Position numbers and translations under genes: made by a program. Below, piece after piece: positions 2,446 to 34,385 of a stretch of DNA of 64,000 nt. Position 1 is the stretch's first letter; each line of letters opens with the position of its first letter. The notes beneath the pieces were generated by a model. It saw only the letters and a list, made by a program, of their open reading frames with translations, did not search any database and was not told the origin of the DNA. This DNA comes from Gaiellaceae bacterium (lineage in GTDB: Bacteria > Actinomycetota > Thermoleophilia > Gaiellales > Gaiellaceae). The stretch is from contig DASXKE010000202.1 in NCBI GenBank assembly GCA_036496985.1, positions 4,678-68,677 of the forward strand, written 5' to 3'.

Positions 2446-2518
2446 AGGCGCATACGGGATTCGAACCCGTGCCGCCGCCGTGAGAGGGCGGTGTCCTAGG
2501 CCACTAGACGAATGCGCC
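2446..2518 (-). tRNA. tRNA-Glu (anticodon CTC)
   Basis: Hand-folded cloverleaf: GGCGCAT/ATGCGCC acceptor, GTCT..GGAC D arm, CCGCC-CTCTCAC-GGCGG anticodon arm, ACGGG-TTCGAAT-CCCGT T arm. 73 nt, CCA not encoded. Confidence 0.85.
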
Positions 2519-6911: not shown

Positions 6912-6982
6912 CTGCGGGGCAGGGATTCGAACCCCAACTTCCTGATCCAGAGTCAGGCGTCCTACCATTAGACGACCCCGCA
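6912..6982 (-). tRNA. tRNA-Gln (anticodon CTG)
   Basis: Hand-folded: TGCGGGG/CCCCGCA acceptor, GTCT-AATGGTA-GGAC D arm, CCTGA-CTCTGGA-TCAGG anticodon arm, TTCGAAT T loop. 71 nt, CCA not encoded. Confidence 0.85.
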
Positions 6983-7014: not shown

Positions 7015-7893
7015 CTAGATTTCGAGCCGGTACATCGGCACGAGGCGGGTCTCGGTCTCGGTGTCGATGTGCGCCACGACCTCGACGTACGGCTCGAGGC
7101 CGCTGCCGCGGAGCTTTGCCTTCAGCAGGCCGTCGACCTGGAAGATTCCGGAGCTGTTGTTCATCAGGATCTCGATCTTGATCGGGCGTTCCTCGCCGTC
7201 GGTGATCGTGACGTCCTCTATCGCCGCCGCCGACAACGAGTGCATCGAGATGCTGCCCTTCTCGAACGGGATCCTCGAGCGGCCCTTCGCCATGTCGAGC
7301 GCGTCGGCGACCCGGACGATGCCGGCGTCGACCGTCAGCGGCTCGCCGTCGGCGCGGTGGCTGATGATCGCCTGCAGCACCTCCGAGACGATCACCGTCT
7401 TGTCGGGCTCGTCATAGAGGCCGTCGAGCAGCTCGCGCATCTTCGGCTCGGAGAGGAAGAGCGAGAAGTCCTCGTGGCCGTGCCGGTGGATCGACATCCC
7501 GACGCAGTGGAAGAGCGCGGCCAGGACGACGACGATTTCCGCGTCGTCCTGCTCGAGGCCGAAGTCGCGGACGAGCCCCGGCTCGACGCCGTGTTTCGTC
7601 AGCTGGCGCAGGAGCTTGAGCGCGATGTTCGTGACGATCTGGACGTGAACCCAGGAGTGGTCGTTGATCGCCATCCGCGAGACGGCGTTGACGTTCGAGA
7701 CGTGCCACCAGCCCTTGACCTGGTCGTCGGCGTTGACGCGCTCGACGAGCGTCCGAAGCTTGCGGTTGCCGCGCACCGGCACGTTGATCTTCATGCGCGC
7801 GACCGCTTCGGCGGGCGTGAGGCGCGCTTCGTGCTCGGCTTCGGCGTCGACCGGTTGGTCGATTCGCTCCGCCGTCTCCTTGTCGATCGACAT
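7015..7893 (-). CDS. HD-superfamily-like metal-dependent phosphohydrolase
   Basis: The HVQIV...LAALFHCVGMSIHRHGHEDF...RVADALD pattern resembles an HD domain, but the usual H-D dyad reads H-C. Start taken at MSIDKE (7893). Confidence 0.65.
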   Translation of the reverse strand: MSIDKETAERIDQPVDAEAEHEARLTPAEAVARMKINVPVRGNRKLRTLVERVNADDQVKGWWHVSNVNAVSRMAINDHSWVHVQIVTNIALKLLRQLTKHGVEPGLVRDFGLEQDDAEIVVVLAALFHCVGMSIHRHGHEDFSLFLSEPKMRELLDGLYDEPDKTVIVSEVLQAIISHRADGEPLTVDAGIVRVADALDMAKGRSRIPFEKGSISMHSLSAAAIEDVTITDGEERPIKIEILMNNSSGIFQVDGLLKAKLRGSGLEPYVEVVAHIDTETETRLVPMYRLEI

Positions 7894-7917
7894 CGGGCTC
7901 AGTCTGACGGATGTGAG

Positions 7918-9240
7918 ATGAATATCGCCATGGACGCACACCCTGTCACGCTTGTGGTCGACGACGACCTCTCACGGAACCGCCTGACCGTTCTCGTGCG
8001 GATCCTGCTTGCGATCCCGCATCTCATCTGGTTTTTCCTCTGGTCGATCCTTGCTCTGCTCGGCTCGATCCTCAACTGGTTCGCGACGCTTATCCTCGGC
8101 CAGCCTCCCGCGTGGCTCCATCGATTTCTCTGTGCCTACATCCGGTACAGCGTGCACCTGAGCGCGTACCTCTATCTCACGGCCAATCCGTACCCGGGAT
8201 TCATGGGCGAGGCCGGCTCGTACCCGATCGACGTGGAGCTGCCGCAAGAGCCGCAGCGGCAGTCGCGCTGGAAGACCCTACTCCGGCTGATCCTCGCGCT
8301 GCCCGCCCTCGTGCTCGCCGCCCTGCTCGGAGGCGGAGTCGGCTTCTCGTACGGCACCTTCTCCCGCAGCGGCCGCAGTGGGTCATCGCGGAACTACTCG
8401 AGCCTCGGGGGTGGGGGCTTGCTGGCCGGTGCCTGCGCTGTGCTCGGCTGGTTCGCGTCGATCGTGCTCGGGCGCATGCCGCGTGGCCTGCGTGACGCCG
8501 GCGCCTACGGCGTCGGCTACGGCGCGCAGGTGCGCGCATACACGCTGCTCATCACCGACACCTACCCGAACACCGATCCGGGCGCGCTCCTGCAGTCCGT
8601 GGAGCCTCCGCCGGAGCATCCGGTGCGCCTCGTCGGCGACGCCCACGATCTACGCCGGTCGCGGCTGACGGTCTTCTTCCGGTTGCCGCTCGTCATCCCG
8701 CACCTCGTCTGGCTCTACCTCTGGTCGATCGCCGCCGCGCTCACCGTGATCGTCAACTGGTTCGCGACGCTCGTGCTGGGTCGCTCACCGGAGCCGTTCC
8801 ACCGGTTCCTCTCGAGATACGTCCGCTACGTGCTGCATGTCTACGCCTTCGCGTCGCTCGCCGCCAACCCGTTCCCGGGCTTCACAGGGGCGGCGGGCAC
8901 GTATCCGCTCGATCTCGTGCTTCCCGAGGAACCGCAGCGGCAGAACCGGTGGAAGACGCTCTTCCGCCTCTTCCTCGCCGTTCCCGCCTGGATCGTCAGC
9001 ATCGCGCTCAGCTACACGCTGTTCGTGTGTGCGTTCTTCACGTGGTTCGTCGCGCTCGTTACCGGCTCAGCGCCCTGGGGCCTGCGCAATCTCTCGGCCT
9101 ACTCGCTGCGCTACCTCGCGCAGGTCAACGCCTACATCTACCTCCTGACCGATCGATATCCGCACGCGAGCCCGCTCGAGGGAGAGGACACGCCCGCCGA
9201 GGCGGCCACCGTGCTGCCCGTCGCGTTGCCTGCCGAGTGA
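7918..9240 (+). CDS. DUF4389-type integral membrane protein, internally duplicated
   Basis: Two copies of RLTV(L/F)xR..L.IPHL(I/V)W...NWFATL(I/V)LG..P...HRFL..Y(I/V)RY..H..A...L.ANP(Y/F)PGF. The first 283 codons of the 723-aa track ORF are antisense to the HD gene and were discarded. Confidence 0.7.
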   Translation: MNIAMDAHPVTLVVDDDLSRNRLTVLVRILLAIPHLIWFFLWSILALLGSILNWFATLILGQPPAWLHRFLCAYIRYSVHLSAYLYLTANPYPGFMGEAGSYPIDVELPQEPQRQSRWKTLLRLILALPALVLAALLGGGVGFSYGTFSRSGRSGSSRNYSSLGGGGLLAGACAVLGWFASIVLGRMPRGLRDAGAYGVGYGAQVRAYTLLITDTYPNTDPGALLQSVEPPPEHPVRLVGDAHDLRRSRLTVFFRLPLVIPHLVWLYLWSIAAALTVIVNWFATLVLGRSPEPFHRFLSRYVRYVLHVYAFASLAANPFPGFTGAAGTYPLDLVLPEEPQRQNRWKTLFRLFLAVPAWIVSIALSYTLFVCAFFTWFVALVTGSAPWGLRNLSAYSLRYLAQVNAYIYLLTDRYPHASPLEGEDTPAEAATVLPVALPAE

Positions 9241-28452: not shown

Positions 28453-28911
28453 ATGCTGGTCGCGGCGTTCACATGGGGCGACCTCTGGCGGCTGGGGCTC
28501 GCCGTGTTTCTGCTCGCCGTCGGCATCACGCTCGCGTTCCTCCTCGTGCGACTGGCCGGAACCGCCGCGCAGGTTTCCACGTTCATCCGTGGAGCGGGAG
28601 ATTCCGTTCTCCCGGTGGTCGACAAGGTTGGAGGGAGCGTGGACCGGGTGAATGTGCAGCTCGACAAGGTGGATCGCATCACCGACAGCGCCGTGGACGC
28701 CGCAGACAGCGTCGACACGGCTGTGCGGGCGGTGAACTATGCGATCACACGTCCGGTGCAGAAGGTCTCGGGCATGGCCGCCGGAGTGAGCTTCGGCGCC
28801 GCCGACTTCAAGGTGAGCCGCGACTGGCGCCACGCGGTTGAGGCCGGGAAGGAGGCCGCGGCCCGACGCGAGAGAGATCTCGCCGAGGAGCTGCGGGACG
28901 CGGGGAAATGA
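28453..28911 (+). CDS. DUF948-like membrane-anchored coiled-coil protein
   Basis: N-terminal TM segment LGLAVFLLAVGITLAFLLV followed by repetitive V/D/S-rich helices. The family assignment is from memory only. Confidence 0.45.
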   Translation: MLVAAFTWGDLWRLGLAVFLLAVGITLAFLLVRLAGTAAQVSTFIRGAGDSVLPVVDKVGGSVDRVNVQLDKVDRITDSAVDAADSVDTAVRAVNYAITRPVQKVSGMAAGVSFGAADFKVSRDWRHAVEAGKEAAARRERDLAEELRDAGK

Positions 28912-29279
28912 ACGCCGAAGAGATCCGGCTGATCATCCCGGCCGAGGAGGATTTCAGGCCGATCGCGCATCTCGTCACCGGCGGGCTCGCGACGAGGCTC
29001 GATGTGACGTACGACGACCTCGACGACCTCCAGGTCGGGATCGAGGCGCTGCTCGCCCTTCGCGACGATGCTGACGAGCTCGTCGTCTCCCTCTCGGCCG
29101 ACGACGGCGTACTGCACGCAGCGCTCGGGCCGTTCCCGCCCGAGAAGGTCCACGCGGCGGAGTCGGACGGCGGGCTGGATTTGCGGCGCGTCCTCGAGAC
29201 CGTCTGCGACACGCACGAGGTCGAGGAGCGTGACGGCGGCGCGTGGGTCGAGCTGAGCAAGCGGGTGGTCGCGGAATGA
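28908..29279 (+). CDS. RsbW/UsfX-position anti-sigma-like protein with degenerate ATP-binding motifs
   Basis: ATGA-coupled on both sides, directly upstream of a SigF-type sigma gene. The layout IRLIIPAEEDFRPIAHLV...LQVGIEALLA...GGAWVELSK resembles the HATPase fold but lacks the N-box Asn and DxGxG. Confidence 0.4.
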   Translation: MNAEEIRLIIPAEEDFRPIAHLVTGGLATRLDVTYDDLDDLQVGIEALLALRDDADELVVSLSADDGVLHAALGPFPPEKVHAAESDGGLDLRRVLETVCDTHEVEERDGGAWVELSKRVVAE

Positions 29280-30034
29280 CGCGGATCGACGACAAGATCC
29301 TGCTGCGCCGCTACCACGAGAACGGCGATCTCCAGGCGCGCGAGCAGCTGATCGAGCAGTACATGTCGCTCGTGCGCTCCCTCGCGCGGCGCTACTCGTA
29401 CCGCGGCGAGCAGCTCGAGGATCTCGTCCAGATCGGTGCGATCGGGCTGATCAAGGCGATCGACCGCTTCGACCTCGACCGCGGTGTCGAGCTGACGACG
29501 TACGCGACGCCGAACATCATCGGTGAGATCAAGCGCCACTTCCGTGACAAGGGCTGGGCAGTGCGGGTGCCGCGTGGCCTGCAAGAGCTCAATGTCCAGC
29601 TTTCGCGGCTCGTCGAGCAGCTGACTGTGCAGCTCGGCCGCTCGCCGACCATCCCCGAGCTCGCGAAGGCCGCGGGCGTCGAGGAAGAGGAAGTGCTCGA
29701 AGCCCTGGAATCCGGTCGCGCCTACACGTCGCTGTCGCTCTCGGTGGGCGGCGGAGGAGGCGACGACGACGATCTCGACCCCCTGGAGTCTCTCGGCACC
29801 GAGGAGCACCAGTACGCGGTCTCGGAGGATCGCGCAGTGCTCGCGCCGGGCTTCAAGGCGCTCGACGAGCGCGAGCGGAAGATCCTCCAGCTCCGCTTCT
29901 TCGACGGGCTGACGCAGTCGCAGATCGCGCAGCAGGTCGGCATCTCGCAGATGCACGTGTCGCGTCTGATCCGGCGCTCGCTCGAGAAGATCCGCGAGAC
30001 GATCGCGGAAGACGAGGAGTCGCTGGCCCGCTAG
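29276..30034 (+). CDS. RNA polymerase sigma factor, SigB/SigF (group 3) family
   Basis: Region 2 DLVQIGAIGLIKAIDRFD and TYATPNIIGEIKRHFRDKGWAVRVPR. Region 4 TQSQIAQQVGISQMHVSRL. Confidence 0.88.
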   Translation: MTRIDDKILLRRYHENGDLQAREQLIEQYMSLVRSLARRYSYRGEQLEDLVQIGAIGLIKAIDRFDLDRGVELTTYATPNIIGEIKRHFRDKGWAVRVPRGLQELNVQLSRLVEQLTVQLGRSPTIPELAKAAGVEEEEVLEALESGRAYTSLSLSVGGGGGDDDDLDPLESLGTEEHQYAVSEDRAVLAPGFKALDERERKILQLRFFDGLTQSQIAQQVGISQMHVSRLIRRSLEKIRETIAEDEESLAR

Positions 30035-33069: not shown

Positions 33070-34086
33070 GTGGGAACGCCTTTCGTGGGAGAGCTCGCCG
33101 TGGCGCAACGGCCCCGCGCCCGTGCCGGGCGCTTGAGCCACGTCGCTGCGTGGGTCGTGCCGGCAGCCGCCGCCATGATCGACGCGTTACGTCACGGACT
33201 GAGCTACGGCGACGGCGACGCACACATCTTCATCGCGGCCGGACGAACGCTTCTGTCCGGTCAGTGGAGCCATGCGTTCTCGCACTCGGTCGTCCAGGCA
33301 GGCCCGCTGCAGCTCGCACTCTTCGGCTCGCTCGGCCGCTCGAGCGAGGCGCTCACGCTCGTGCTCGCGCCGGCGGTTGCACTCCTCGTGGTGGCGGCTG
33401 TTCGGGCAACCGGAGTCACGAACCCGGTGCTCTACGGAGGCGCCGGTCTGTTTGCGGTAGCGACGGGCCTCACGCGCGTCGGCTACGTGGCCGGACATCC
33501 CGCGGACGCCGTGCTCCCACTGATCTGGATTCTCGCCGCCGCCGACGCGCGCCGGGGCCACGCGCGCCGAGCCGGATTGCTCGTGGGCCTCTGCGCGGGG
33601 CTGGAGACGTGGGGGATCCTCGGCGTCGCCGTGCTCGCGCTCGCGCCGCGGCGCCGTGAGGCGGCCATCGGCACCGTGGTGGCTGGGGCGACGGCTGCTG
33701 CGCTGTTCCTCCCGTTCCTGCTCGGCGGCCATTTCGCGATGTTCTCGCTGCAGTGGCAGGTTCGTCCTCCGGCGCCCATCTCTCTGTTCGTCGCCGCCGG
33801 CACTCCGTACGGCTGGCCGCTGCGACTGGCTCAGGGACTCTTTGCGGTCGGGGCCGGGGTCGCCGTCGCCCGGCTCCTGCGCGACTCGCCGCACGGCGTC
33901 TGGGCGGCGCCGCTCGCGACCGTCTGCGCGCGGCTGCTGCTCGATCCGCTTCTTCTGAGCTACTACCTCGCCGCTCTCAAGGGGCCGGCCCTGGTCGGCG
34001 CGGCGGTCGGCGCCTCTTCGCTGTTGCTGAAGCGCGGCGTCGAGTCGAGCGGCCGTGCTCCCGCCGCTCTCGGCGGCTCTCGCTAG
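33070..34086 (+). CDS. Polytopic membrane protein (possibly GT-C/DUF2029-like glycosyltransferase)
   Basis: At least 8 hydrophobic segments and an early YGDGDAHIF loop. The function call is weak. Confidence 0.45.
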   Translation: MGTPFVGELAVAQRPRARAGRLSHVAAWVVPAAAAMIDALRHGLSYGDGDAHIFIAAGRTLLSGQWSHAFSHSVVQAGPLQLALFGSLGRSSEALTLVLAPAVALLVVAAVRATGVTNPVLYGGAGLFAVATGLTRVGYVAGHPADAVLPLIWILAAADARRGHARRAGLLVGLCAGLETWGILGVAVLALAPRRREAAIGTVVAGATAAALFLPFLLGGHFAMFSLQWQVRPPAPISLFVAAGTPYGWPLRLAQGLFAVGAGVAVARLLRDSPHGVWAAPLATVCARLLLDPLLLSYYLAALKGPALVGAAVGASSLLLKRGVESSGRAPAALGGSR

Positions 34087-34319
34087 GAGTCCTGGCGCGA
34101 GTGAAGGAGCTCGCGGACGGAGTCGATGCGGCGATGGACTTCCTGCCGCTCGTTCGAGACCTCGCGCTCGCGCTCGCGCGTCGTTGCGCTCTCGAAGCCG
34201 AAGTCGATCTGATGCTGCAGATGGCGACGAACCGCTGAGAGCCGCGCCTCCTCGGCTTCGAGGGTGGCGAGCTCGCGGCGAAGGCCGTCGACGCTGGCTT
34301 TCTGGCCGGCTTCCTGCAT
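34083..34319 (-). CDS. Small two-helix coiled-coil protein with an RsiG-type c-di-GMP-binding signature
   Basis: GC3-rich 78-codon ORF. Residues 24-39 (EARLSAVRRHLQHQID) fit E-x3-S-x2-R-x3-Q-x3-D exactly. Residues 51-66 (EREVSNERQEVHRRID) fit it with Q replaced by H. Confidence 0.45.
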   Translation of the reverse strand: MQEAGQKASVDGLRRELATLEAEEARLSAVRRHLQHQIDFGFESATTREREREVSNERQEVHRRIDSVRELLHSRQDS

Positions 34320-34385
34320 TGAGCTTCTATCGGCAGGCGGCTCGGTTGCCGTGAGCCCGGTTCGGGCTGCGAAGTATCGGCAGCT

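What the first reader, a model, noticed from the sequence alone, without database searches (positions are those of the whole stretch)
34083..34319. 78-aa coiled-coil ORF with an exact RsiG-type c-di-GMP-binding signature plus a second near-copy
Residues 24-39 read E-ARL-S-AV-R-RHL-Q-HQI-D. This is a perfect match to the E(X)3S(X)2R(X)3Q(X)3D motif through which the actinobacterial anti-sigma RsiG clamps c-di-GMP in an antiparallel coiled coil to sequester sigma-WhiG. Residues 51-66 read E-REV-S-NE-R-QEV-H-RRI-D, with identical spacing and Q replaced by H, on what should be the second helix of a hairpin. Published work describes small single-motif RsiG homologues in basal Actinobacteria (Rubrobacter) that homodimerise, and twin-motif forms elsewhere. 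A 78-aa protein carrying both motifs would be an unusually minimal twin-motif form. The ORF is GC3-rich and convergently overlaps the upstream gene by CTAG. It sits next to mreB and a PBP5-type carboxypeptidase. No WhiG/FliA-type sigma and no GGDEF/EAL gene is in this window.
Basis: partly seen in the sequence, partly recalled or inferred. Interest (0 to 1): 0.7.

Follow-up and report, generated by a model that had tools for sequence, protein, structure and literature searches.

The report
Minimal twin-motif RsiG-like c-di-GMP hairpin
A 78-residue protein of an uncultured soil actinobacterium (Gaiellaceae) carries, on a predicted helical hairpin, two conserved copies of the motif the anti-sigma factor RsiG uses to clamp c-di-GMP, and a WhiG-type promoter precedes its gene, so it looks like a much smaller, undescribed form of that switch.

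Summary
ORF 34083..34319(-) encodes 78 aa with E24-S28-R31-Q35-D39 and E51-S55-R58-H62-D66. Two motifs never arose in 200,000 composition-preserving shuffles.

- **Family:** it passes Pfam's RsiG-like model (35.5 bits, cut-off 27), and each helix aligns to the same model positions.
- **Conservation:** it belongs to a family of 74-130-aa proteins (171 clusters at 50% identity). Across 128 representatives the ten motif positions average 0.94 conservation against 0.53 elsewhere. The linker between motifs varies from 10 to 29 residues.
- **Fold:** AlphaFold2 predicts a confident antiparallel hairpin (pLDDT 89).
- **Lineage:** it differs from the published single-motif Thermoleophilia/Rubrobacter RsiGs and from the ~200-aa twin-motif forms.
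- **New here:** in all 45 related Gaiellaceae loci the gene has TCA(A/G)-N15-17-GCCGATA, then 8 nt, then the start codon. That is a sigma-28/WhiG-type promoter implying a leaderless mRNA.
- **Partner candidate:** Gaiellaceae encode WhiG with the c-di-GMP-contact residues K, G and R intact.

The sigma 4 kb away is SigB/F-type with its own RsbW-like partner.

Most likely this is a c-di-GMP-armed mini anti-sigma, or a c-di-GMP receptor, in the WhiG circuit. c-di-GMP binding, oligomeric state, partner and same-genome co-occurrence with whiG remain untested.

The parts
34083..34319 (-). 78-aa ORF encoding the mini twin-motif RsiG-like protein
   Evidence: ORF list and translation. Coding GC1/2/3 of 0.77/0.42/0.84. 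PF22802 RsiG-like at 35.5 bits against a cut-off of 27. 304 close homologues and 171 clusters at 50% identity.
34203..34250 (-). Motif 1, residues 24-39 (E-x3-S-x2-R-x3-Q-x3-D), on predicted helix 1 (residues 2-39)
   Evidence: Family conservation E .94, S 1.0, R .99, Q/H .95, D .82. Aligns to Pfam RsiG model positions 26-41.
34170..34202 (-). Linker between the motifs, residues 40-50 (FGFESATTRER). It holds the subfamily-invariant F40-G41 turn; the AF2 loop is residues 40-46.
   Evidence: F40 and G41 are invariant in alignment A1. AF2 secondary structure. The linker length varies from 10 to 29 residues across the family.
34122..34169 (-). Motif 2, residues 51-66 (E-x3-S-x2-R-x3-H-x3-D), on predicted helix 2 (residues 47-77)
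   Evidence: Family conservation E .99, S .99, R .99, H .98, D .91. The C-half alone aligns to the same Pfam model positions 26-41 (15.4 bits, E 0.015).
34328..34334 (-). GCCGATA, a sigma-28/WhiG-type -10 element, 8 nt upstream of the ATG. This spacing implies a leaderless transcript.
   Evidence: Present at the same position in all 45 related loci, 41 of them non-redundant. 42 of the 68 GCCGATA heptamers in 716 kb are at these promoters. The published WhiG -10 is GCCGATAA (PMC8325347).
34351..34354 (-). -35-like element (TCAC here; TCAA or TCAG in most relatives), 16 nt upstream of GCCGATA
   Evidence: T at -20 in 83% and C at -19 in 61% of 41 non-redundant promoters. All 32 TNA[AG]-N15-17-GCCGATA sites in 716 kb precede RsiG-like genes. 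The published -35 is TAAA.
34361..34373 (-). Palindromic element TTCGCAGCCCGAA (TTCG-N5-CGAA) just upstream of the -35; a possible operator
   Evidence: TTCG-N5-7-CGA lies at -39 relative to GCCGATA in 23 of 40 non-redundant promoters, against a background of 0.04 per 60 nt. It is also present at paralogues in unrelated contexts.

Best explanation
The ORF encodes a minimal member of the RsiG-like superfamily.

Proposed structure:
- It is a single helical hairpin: helix 1 is about residues 2-39, a short FGF turn follows, and helix 2 is about residues 47-77.
- The two helices form an intramolecular antiparallel coiled coil.
- Each helix contributes one E-x3-S-x2-R-x3-[Q/H]-x3-D motif.
- One chain would therefore rebuild the two-fold-symmetric site that binds a c-di-GMP dimer. 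RsiG of Streptomyces builds that site from helices a1 and a5. Rubrobacter RsiG builds it by homodimerising.

Proposed regulation and function:
- In the Gaiellaceae subfamily the gene is transcribed from its own sigma-28/WhiG-type promoter as a leaderless mRNA.
- When c-di-GMP is high, the c-di-GMP-loaded hairpin most likely docks on WhiG and sequesters it. Gaiellaceae WhiG keeps the c-di-GMP-contacting residues in sigma-2 (K, G, R) and in sigma-4 (T, R).
- This would give negative feedback of the kind seen with FlgM and sigma-28.
- The hairpin has almost no N- or C-terminal extensions, so the nucleotide itself would supply much of the interface.

Shown here: the ORF, both motifs and their conservation, profile membership, the hairpin prediction, the conserved promoter, and WhiG in the family Gaiellaceae.

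Inferred: c-di-GMP binding, the monomeric state, the leaderless start, and WhiG as partner.
For: Membership:
- PF22802 scores 35.5 bits against a cut-off of 27, E 7.8e-9, with two matched stretches.
- Each half aligns to model positions 26-41.
- The top hits of the family profile against PDB sequences are RsiG of R. radiotolerans (7lq2/3/4, E 0.06) and, lower down, RsiG of S. venezuelae (6pfj).

Functional constraint on both motifs:
- Motif positions average 0.94 top-residue frequency against 0.53 elsewhere in 128 representatives. The only other highly conserved positions are heptad a/d core residues.
- His at the Q position is functional in RsiG of C. woesei (PMC8325347).

Hairpin:
- AF2 gives pLDDT 89.2 and pTM 0.73, with helices 2-39 and 47-77.
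- Foldseek matches antiparallel hairpins with query TM-score (TMq) up to 0.86.
- The inter-motif linker varies from 10 to 29 residues while the helices stay fixed.
- The halves align to each other with an offset of 27 residues, 33% identity, P 0.008. That equals the a1/a5 identity reported for RsiG-Sv (PMC7005675).

Promoter:
- GCCGATA plus 8 nt plus ATG/GTG occurs in 45 of 45 loci, including paralogues in unrelated contexts.
- All 32 TNA[AG]-N15-17-GCCGATA sites in 716 kb are these promoters.
- The published WhiG consensus is TAAA / GCCGATAA.

Partner candidate:
- NCBI-named WhiG proteins of Gaiellaceae exist.
- They carry PLVKYVAGR and LTLREIGE. K57/G61/R62 and T237/R239 are the c-di-GMP contacts.

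c-di-GMP link: one paralogue lies next to a REC-HD-GYP protein.
Against: - No binding data exist.
- The protein lacks the N-/C-terminal helices (Rubrobacter) or a2-a4/a6 and the loop (Streptomyces) through which known RsiGs grip sigma-2 and sigma-4.
- AF2 was run on one chain, so a dimer or four-helix bundle is not excluded.
- Sequence similarity to solved RsiGs is weak and limited to helix 1.
- whiG was not found on the same contig or in the same MAG as the gene. No diguanylate cyclase is in the window.
- More divergent family members lack the GCCGATA promoter.
- A purine-rich stretch (GAGG/GAAG) between GCCGATA and the start codon could be a ribosome-binding site. In that case GCCGATA would lie in a 5' leader rather than being a -10 element.
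Confidence: 0.45

Rival explanations
1. Same family and same ligand, but a different assembly. The hairpin homodimerises into a four-helix bundle, or opens into an extended antiparallel dimer as Rubrobacter RsiG does. The c-di-GMP sites would then form between chains (helix 1 with helix 1', helix 2 with helix 2'), giving two sites per dimer.
For: All five published small RsiGs are homodimers (PMC8325347). Helical hairpins often dimerise. AF2 was given one chain only. A 142-aa relative (P0222) is a tandem double hairpin.
Against: The subfamily-invariant F40-G41 turn immediately follows D39, whereas the Rubrobacter helix continues 9 residues past the motif Asp. The confident monomeric hairpin has pTM 0.73. 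By heptad reasoning (inference) the two motifs sit at mirror-image positions about the turn, as an intramolecular site requires.
Confidence: 0.2
2. It binds c-di-GMP but is not an anti-sigma. It would be a small c-di-GMP receptor or buffer expressed as an output of the WhiG regulon. It would act on another partner, for example cell-envelope or morphogenesis proteins encoded next door, or simply titrate the nucleotide.
For: It has no sigma-binding extensions. Linkage to PBP5-mreB-(69-aa membrane protein) is conserved in about 27 of 41 loci. Several genomes carry 2-3 paralogues in varied contexts. Divergent relatives lack the WhiG-type promoter.
Against: The mreB linkage is seen only among close relatives, and the gene has its own promoter. 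Paralogues keep the promoter but not the neighbours. Gaiellaceae WhiG keeps Gly61 and the K/R contacts, which the literature ties to co-occurrence with RsiG.
Confidence: 0.2
3. Its partner is the syntenic SigB/SigF/SigG-type sigma at 29243..30034 rather than WhiG.
For: This sigma lies 0.6-5.6 kb from the gene in about 25 loci and is 92-98% identical across them. It is a group-3 sigma, like WhiG.
Against: - It has its own RsbW-like gene overlapping its start (28908..29279; RsbW N-terminus, E 7.6e-8).
- It has Arg where WhiG needs Gly61, and any side chain there would clash with c-di-GMP.
- The two genes are convergent, with a variable insert between them.
- Paralogues have no such sigma nearby.
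- The gene's promoter is sigma-28-like. From general knowledge, SigB/F-type promoters have a GGGTAT-like -10 instead.
Confidence: 0.07
4. It is an ordinary structural coiled-coil protein (ZapB/DivIC-like) and its resemblance to RsiG is incidental.
For: Weak sub-threshold Pfam hits to ZapB, DivIC and spectrin repeats. Location beside mreB and a PBP. Foldseek finds only generic hairpins.
Against: - The conserved positions are exactly the ten polar c-di-GMP-contacting residues, at 0.82-1.0, plus the hydrophobic core.
- The RsiG model is the only Pfam family above its cut-off.
- Two motifs occurred in 0 of 200,000 shuffles.
- The gene has a WhiG-type promoter.
Confidence: 0.05

Closest known systems
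RsiG of Streptomyces venezuelae (twin-motif, monomeric; PDB 6PFJ/6PFV)
   Same: [quoted passage not shown] The two helices are about 33% identical to each other. Same Pfam family (PF22802).
   Different: - RsiG-Sv is about 200 aa. Its motifs lie at residues 64-79 and 162-177, separated by helices a2-a4 and a long loop that wraps the c-di-GMP and grips WhiG (PMC7005675).
- Here the motifs are 11 residues apart in a 78-aa chain with no such elements.
- Direct sequence similarity is marginal (E 9 for the single sequence, 0.23 for the profile).
Single-motif RsiG of Rubrobacter radiotolerans (PDB 7LQ2/7LQ3/7LQ4) and of Thermoleophilia (T. album, C. woesei, P. medicamentivorans)
   Same: Small size. 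Basal actinobacterial lineage (Thermoleophilia/Rubrobacteria). Helix 1 aligns to the motif helix, which is the top PDB hit of the family profile. No c-di-GMP-shielding loop. The partner WhiG has T and R in sigma-4, as in Rubrobacter.
   Different: - Those proteins have one motif and homodimerise. Their motif helix runs on past the motif Asp, and they have N- and C-terminal extensions that fold onto sigma-2 and sigma-4.
- The Thermoleophilia ones start M(M)DTFPDL. None of the relatives found here do.
- This protein has a second conserved motif, a turn right after D39, and no extensions.
FlgM, the anti-sigma-28 factor of flagellar systems
   Same: A small anti-sigma candidate whose gene is itself read from a sigma-28-type promoter, which gives negative feedback. 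This is general knowledge; the promoter evidence here is.
   Different: No homology. FlgM is intrinsically disordered and binds no nucleotide. RsiG's fold and contacts are described as entirely different from FlgM's (PMC7005675).

Membership tests
RsiG-like superfamily (Pfam PF22802) | Scores above the curated gathering threshold of the family profile | tested here: met
   35.5 bits against 27, E 7.8e-9. The N-half alone scores 30.9 bits. Most homologues carry a precomputed PF22802 hit.
RsiG-like superfamily (Pfam PF22802) | E-x3-S-x2-R-x3-[Q/H]-x3-D c-di-GMP-binding signature on a coiled-coil helix | tested here: met
   Two copies, at residues 24-39 and 51-66. Both are conserved family-wide at 0.82-1.0 per position. 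Both align to model positions 26-41.
RsiG-like superfamily (Pfam PF22802) | Two motif helices packed antiparallel so that the motifs face one c-di-GMP dimer | tested here: inconclusive
   AF2 predicts an antiparallel hairpin with pLDDT 89. Heptad reasoning places the motifs symmetrically, but that is inference.
RsiG-like superfamily (Pfam PF22802) | Binds c-di-GMP specifically | not testable with these tools
   Needs fluorescence polarisation, ITC or DRaCALA with purified protein.
RsiG anti-sigma factors (functional class) | Co-occurs with a WhiG (WhiG2-type) sigma carrying K57/G61/R62 | tested here: inconclusive
   Met at family level. NCBI-named Gaiellaceae WhiG proteins carry PLVKYVAGR, and the gene has a WhiG-type promoter. 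Not shown for the same genome. None in the window.
RsiG anti-sigma factors (functional class) | Regions outside the coiled coil that bind sigma-2 and sigma-4 of WhiG | tested here: not met
   In the AF2 model the helices span residues 2-77 and the sequence conserved across the family starts near residue 9, so almost nothing lies outside the hairpin. Known RsiGs use long extensions or a2-a4/a6.
RsiG anti-sigma factors (functional class) | The genome encodes diguanylate cyclases or phosphodiesterases | tested here: inconclusive
   None among the window ORFs scanned. One paralogue, in L022, lies beside a REC-HD-GYP protein. The whole genome is not available.
Single-motif homodimeric RsiG (Rubrobacter/Thermoleophilia type) | Only one c-di-GMP motif per chain; the a5-equivalent helix is absent | tested here: not met
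   A second conserved motif sits on a second helix. The N-terminus differs from the published MDTFPDL proteins.
Twin-motif monomeric RsiG (Streptomyces type) | Motifs on a1 and a5, separated by about 80 residues that include the c-di-GMP-encircling loop and WhiG-bracing helices | tested here: not met
   The motifs are separated by 11 residues here and by 10-29 in the family, against residues 64-79 and 162-177 in RsiG-Sv.

The most novel reading that the evidence does not exclude
The 74-78-aa hairpin is a self-contained module that binds a c-di-GMP dimer. It would be the smallest known protein receptor for this messenger, and it would inhibit WhiG with the nucleotide as almost the only glue.

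Its twin-motif state would have arisen by a separate, short-linker duplication in basal Actinomycetota. Twin-motif RsiGs would then have evolved at least twice, or the mini form would be the missing intermediate between single-motif dimers and the large monomers. The wider family (171 clusters, many without the WhiG promoter) would have been redeployed onto other partners.
Probability: 0.3. Interest if true: 0.8.

Novelty: new variant of a known kind. Interest (0 to 1): 0.62.

Why it matters
RsiG-(c-di-GMP)2-WhiG is the only known case of c-di-GMP controlling a sigma factor. Its evolution has been told as a story of ancestral single-motif dimers giving rise, by one internal duplication, to large twin-motif monomers.

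A widespread, strongly conserved twin-motif form of only about 75 residues, in the basal class Thermoleophilia, adds a third architecture that this story does not contain.

- **Testable question:** can a bare hairpin plus two c-di-GMP molecules sequester a sigma factor without any bracing elements?
- **Possible tool:** it would be an attractive minimal scaffold for c-di-GMP sensors.
- **Regulon handle:** the conserved WhiG-type leaderless promoter gives a first way into the WhiG regulon of Gaiellaceae, which are among the most abundant and least cultured soil actinobacteria.

Tried and rejected
- **Single-sequence search against PDB sequences.** It gave only noise and a marginal RsiG-Sv hit (E 9). 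The family profile improved this only to E 0.06.
- **Foldseek of the AF2 model.** It returned generic hairpins with no E below 0.3 and no RsiG among the 50 listed matches, so it was uninformative for membership.
- **NCBIfam.** It has no model for this protein.
- **The syntenic sigma as partner.** Rejected as the main hypothesis. The sigma is SigB/F-type, it has an RsbW-like neighbour, and it has Arg at the Gly61 position.
- **A sigma gene 7 kb from the L045 paralogue.** It turned out to be RpoD.
- **The 'GGEEF' at ~58060.** It is in RecN.
- **The second GCCGATA at 34375..34381.** It is not conserved in relatives and overlaps the TACTTCG palindrome element.
- **The diverse alignment A2 as a scan query.** It was too variable for the genome scan.
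- **Cluster-member look-ups.** They gave no taxonomy for divergent relatives.
- **Other searches of the DNA held.** No canonical MDTFPD-type RsiG and no WhiG was seen in the 0.74-0.88 Mb of DNA held. That samples only about 20 kb per genome.
- **Rfam.** It found only two tRNAs in the window.
- **Literature.** No paper in the library describes small twin-motif RsiG-like proteins.
Full report
**1. The observation**

The minus-strand ORF 34083..34319 starts with ATG and encodes the 78-aa protein MQEAGQKASVDGLRRELATLEAEEARLSAVRRHLQHQIDFGFESATTREREREVSNERQEVHRRIDSVRELLHSRQDS.
- Residues 24-39 are an exact E-x3-S-x2-R-x3-Q-x3-D.
- Residues 51-66 repeat the pattern with His for Gln.
- These are the only two matches to E-x3-S-x2-R-x3-[QH]-x3-D in all six frames of the window.
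- Shuffling the protein's own composition gives one motif in 0.12% of trials and two motifs in none of 200,000.
- GC by codon position (0.77/0.42/0.84) is typical of genes in this 69.7% GC window.
- The CTAG convergent overlap with 33070..34086(+) is as described, and so are the neighbouring mreB and S11 carboxypeptidase.

**2. Family membership**

- Pfam's RsiG-like model PF22802 is the only family above its gathering score (35.5 bits against 27, E 7.8e-9, two stretches).
- Scanned separately, the N-half scores 30.9 bits with E24-D39 on model positions 26-41.
- The C-half scores weakly (15.4 bits, E 0.015) but places E51-D66 on the same positions 26-41.
- A profile of the family has RsiG of R. 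radiotolerans (7lq2/3/4, E 0.06) as its top hits against PDB sequences, and also finds RsiG of S. venezuelae (6pfj, E 0.23). Only helix 1 aligns.
- hhalign of the N-half profile against the C-half profile aligns residues 16-39 to 43-66 at 33% identity, P 0.008. That is the same level reported for a1/a5 of RsiG-Sv (PMC7005675).

**3. A conserved family, distinct from the published small RsiGs**

- The word-indexed search found 304 homologues, mostly 74-78 aa and mostly carrying PF22802.
- The exhaustive profile search found 171 clusters at 50% identity.
- Of the best 150, 85 have two strict motifs and 102 have at least two core motifs. The usual offset between motifs is 26-27 residues.
- I aligned 128 representatives to the family HMM without selecting on motif content. 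The result was motif 1 at E .94, S 1.0, R .99, Q/H .95, D .82, and motif 2 at E .99, S .99, R .99, H .98, D .91.
- Motif positions average 0.94 against 0.53 for all other positions. The only other strongly conserved positions are heptad core residues (L17, L20, L34, L61, I65, L68, L72).
- The linker between the motifs ranges from 10 to 29 residues.
- Caveat: the sequences were recruited with a profile that rewards these columns.
- The literature describes five single-motif RsiGs (two Rubrobacter species, T. album, P. medicamentivorans, C. woesei) that homodimerise, and about 130 large twin-motif monomers. His at the Gln position is common, and RsiG of C. woesei, which has His there, binds c-di-GMP (PMC8325347).
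- The Thermoleophilia proteins begin M(M)DTFPDL (primer table). None of the relatives found here do, so this is a separate lineage.
- No paper in the library mentions small twin-motif forms.

**4. Structure**

- AlphaFold2 with the family alignment gives helices 2-39 and 47-77 joined by a 7-residue loop, with mean pLDDT 89.2 and pTM 0.73.
- Foldseek matches antiparallel hairpins (the seryl-tRNA synthetase arm, AcrA) with query TM-score (TMq) up to 0.86. All E-values exceed 0.3, so this confirms the fold type only.
- By heptad assignment (my inference), E and R of each motif sit at 'a' positions, and S and Q/H at 'e' positions. The 'd' positions are L13/L20/L27/L34 on helix 1 and V54/V61/V68 on helix 2.
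- An a-d' register with i+j=92 pairs L27 with I65 and L20 with L72. It puts the motif centres (31.5 and 58.5) in the same relation as in the Rubrobacter homodimer. There the helix spans residues 45-83 and the motif ends at D74.
- In this subfamily F40-G41 is invariant directly after D39, whereas the Rubrobacter helix runs 9 residues further. This favours an intramolecular site.
- I could not obtain coordinates, and only one chain was modelled.

**5. Genomic context**

- The close subfamily occurs only in uncultured Gaiellaceae/Thermoleophilia MAGs (41 loci).
- In about 25 loci the gene order is mltG, alaS, PBP5, mreB, (a 69-aa membrane protein), the RsiG-like gene, a variable 0.6-5.6 kb insert, then the sigma, orf123, DUF948 and mnmA.
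- Some genomes carry two or three paralogues in unrelated contexts. One lies beside a REC-HD-GYP protein and another beside a triple-GAF protein.
- The window's sigma (29243..30034) is SigB/SigF/SigG-type (TIGR02980 at 285.6 bits against 234; FliA_WhiG at 112 against 189.6). Its closest solved structures are a 256-aa sigma chain (8x6g_H, 188 bits) and a sigma factor (1l0o_C, 157.5 bits), with S. venezuelae WhiG (6pfv) third at 100 bits.
- At WhiG's c-di-GMP contacts K57/G61/R62 this sigma has R45/R49/R50. Any side chain at Gly61 would clash with c-di-GMP (PMC7005675).
- The overlapping upstream gene 28908..29279 matches the N-terminus of RsbW (E 7.6e-8). This sigma therefore has its own anti-sigma and is an unlikely partner.
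- The rest of the window is housekeeping: hut genes, ABC transporters, hisS/aspS (named by synteny), aro genes, efp, nusB, recN and pyrG. No GGDEF, EAL or WhiG gene was found among the ORFs scanned.

**6. A WhiG-type promoter (new)**

- In all 45 related loci (41 non-redundant), GCCGATA is followed by 8 nt (9 nt in a few loci) and then the ATG or GTG start codon.
- T(C)A(A/G) lies 15-17 nt upstream of GCCGATA. The intervening bases vary freely.
- This holds for the paralogues in unrelated neighbourhoods as well.
- In 716 kb of Gaiellaceae DNA, every one of the 32 TNA[AG]-N15-17-GCCGATA sites is such a promoter. Of the 68 GCCGATA heptamers in that DNA, 42 are at these promoters.
- The window has only four GCCGATA heptamers. 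Two lie inside genes and two lie in this 66-bp intergenic region.
- The published WhiG/flagellar consensus is -35 TAAA and -10 GCCGATAA (PMC8325347).
- The fixed distance from the -10 element to the start codon implies a leaderless mRNA (inference).
- A palindrome, TTCG-N5-7-CGA, sits at -39 in 23 of 40 promoters against a background of 0.04 per 60 nt.
- Two divergent family members lack this promoter, so the WhiG link is specific to the Gaiellaceae subfamily.
- Alternative reading: a purine-rich stretch after GCCGATA could be a ribosome-binding site, which would put the heptamer in a 5' leader.

**7. Is there a WhiG?**

- Searches seeded with Rubrobacter WhiG segments, and then with the soil homologues they recovered, returned proteins that NCBI names 'RNA polymerase sigma factor WhiG [Gaiellaceae bacterium]' (P0440, P0451, P0454; P0469 is named FliA).
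- All of them carry PLVKYVAGR (K, G and R intact) and LTLREIGE in sigma-4. T and R match the sigma-4 contacts that compensate for the missing loop in the Rubrobacter complex; K243 is Glu here.
- The literature ties conservation of these residues to co-occurrence with RsiG.
- I could not place whiG and the mini gene in one MAG. Contig lengths and WGS prefixes differ. The whiG loci hold no RsiG-like gene.

**8. Conclusion**

The most likely mechanism is a single-chain hairpin that clamps a c-di-GMP dimer and, as part of the WhiG regulon, feeds back on WhiG (confidence 0.45).

Rivals are:
- an intermolecular dimeric assembly (0.2);
- a c-di-GMP receptor or buffer with a non-sigma partner (0.2);
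- the syntenic SigB/F-type sigma as partner (0.07);
- an unrelated structural coiled coil (0.05).

It is a member of the RsiG-like superfamily. It fits neither described architecture and lacks the sigma-bracing elements, so I file it as a new variant of a known kind.

Noticed in passing
window 28453..30034 (+): Three overlapping genes that look like an operon: a DUF948-like membrane protein (28453..28911), a 123-aa protein matching only the N-terminal ~45 residues of the anti-sigma RsbW (28908..29279), and a SigB/F/G-type sigma (29243..30034). Across Gaiellaceae loci the sigma is 92-98% identical, more conserved than MreB (80-95%). No STAS-type anti-anti-sigma gene was seen among the scanned neighbours.
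   Followed up: partly
window 34361..34373 (and about -39 relative to GCCGATA in L004-L045): A conserved palindrome, TTCG-N5-7-CGA(A), lies just upstream of the -35-like element of the RsiG-like gene in 23 of 40 non-redundant promoters, including paralogues. It may be an operator for an unknown regulator.
   Followed up: partly
L050:9779-9785, L051:9046-9052, L053:1737-1743, L054:1420-1426, L056/L058:2728-2734 (minus strand): In all six of these Gaiellaceae-type whiG loci, a conserved GCCGATACAATC lies on the strand opposite to whiG, about 200-350 bp upstream of it. It could be a WhiG-dependent divergent or antisense promoter, or a regulatory site for whiG itself.
   Followed up: no
L050:1682-1696 (minus strand), gene L050:1088-1681: A second example of GCCGATA, 8 nt, then ATG, in front of a 197-aa protein with no Pfam hit, on a contig that also encodes a WhiG2-type sigma. 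It is a candidate further member of the WhiG regulon.
   Followed up: no
L022:8742-9815 (-): A REC + HD_5 (HD-GYP-type) response regulator lies divergently next to a paralogue of the mini RsiG-like gene. This is the only direct c-di-GMP-enzyme neighbour found.
   Followed up: partly
proteins P0160, P0169, P0170, P0172, P0174, P0185: One subgroup of the wider family carries a conserved C-terminal tail, roughly P-L-[SA]-E-x-R-x-L-x-x-L-G-L, after the hairpin. It may be a partner-binding peptide that the window's protein lacks.
   Followed up: no
proteins P0222 (142 aa) and P0122 (405 aa): P0222 is a tandem duplication of the whole hairpin. P0122 reads as an MreB C-terminal part fused to the RsiG-like hairpin. 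That may be a gene-calling or frameshift artefact, or a real fusion.
   Followed up: no
window 7015..7941 (-) and L033:10654-11625 (-): An HD-domain protein of about 310 aa (weak PF01966 hit) occurs in the window. A similar-sized HD protein lies next to a paralogue in L033. Whether the two are related was not checked.
   Followed up: no
window 2446..2518 (-) and 6912..6982 (-): Two tRNA genes, the only Rfam matches in the window. No c-di-GMP riboswitch was found.
   Followed up: yes
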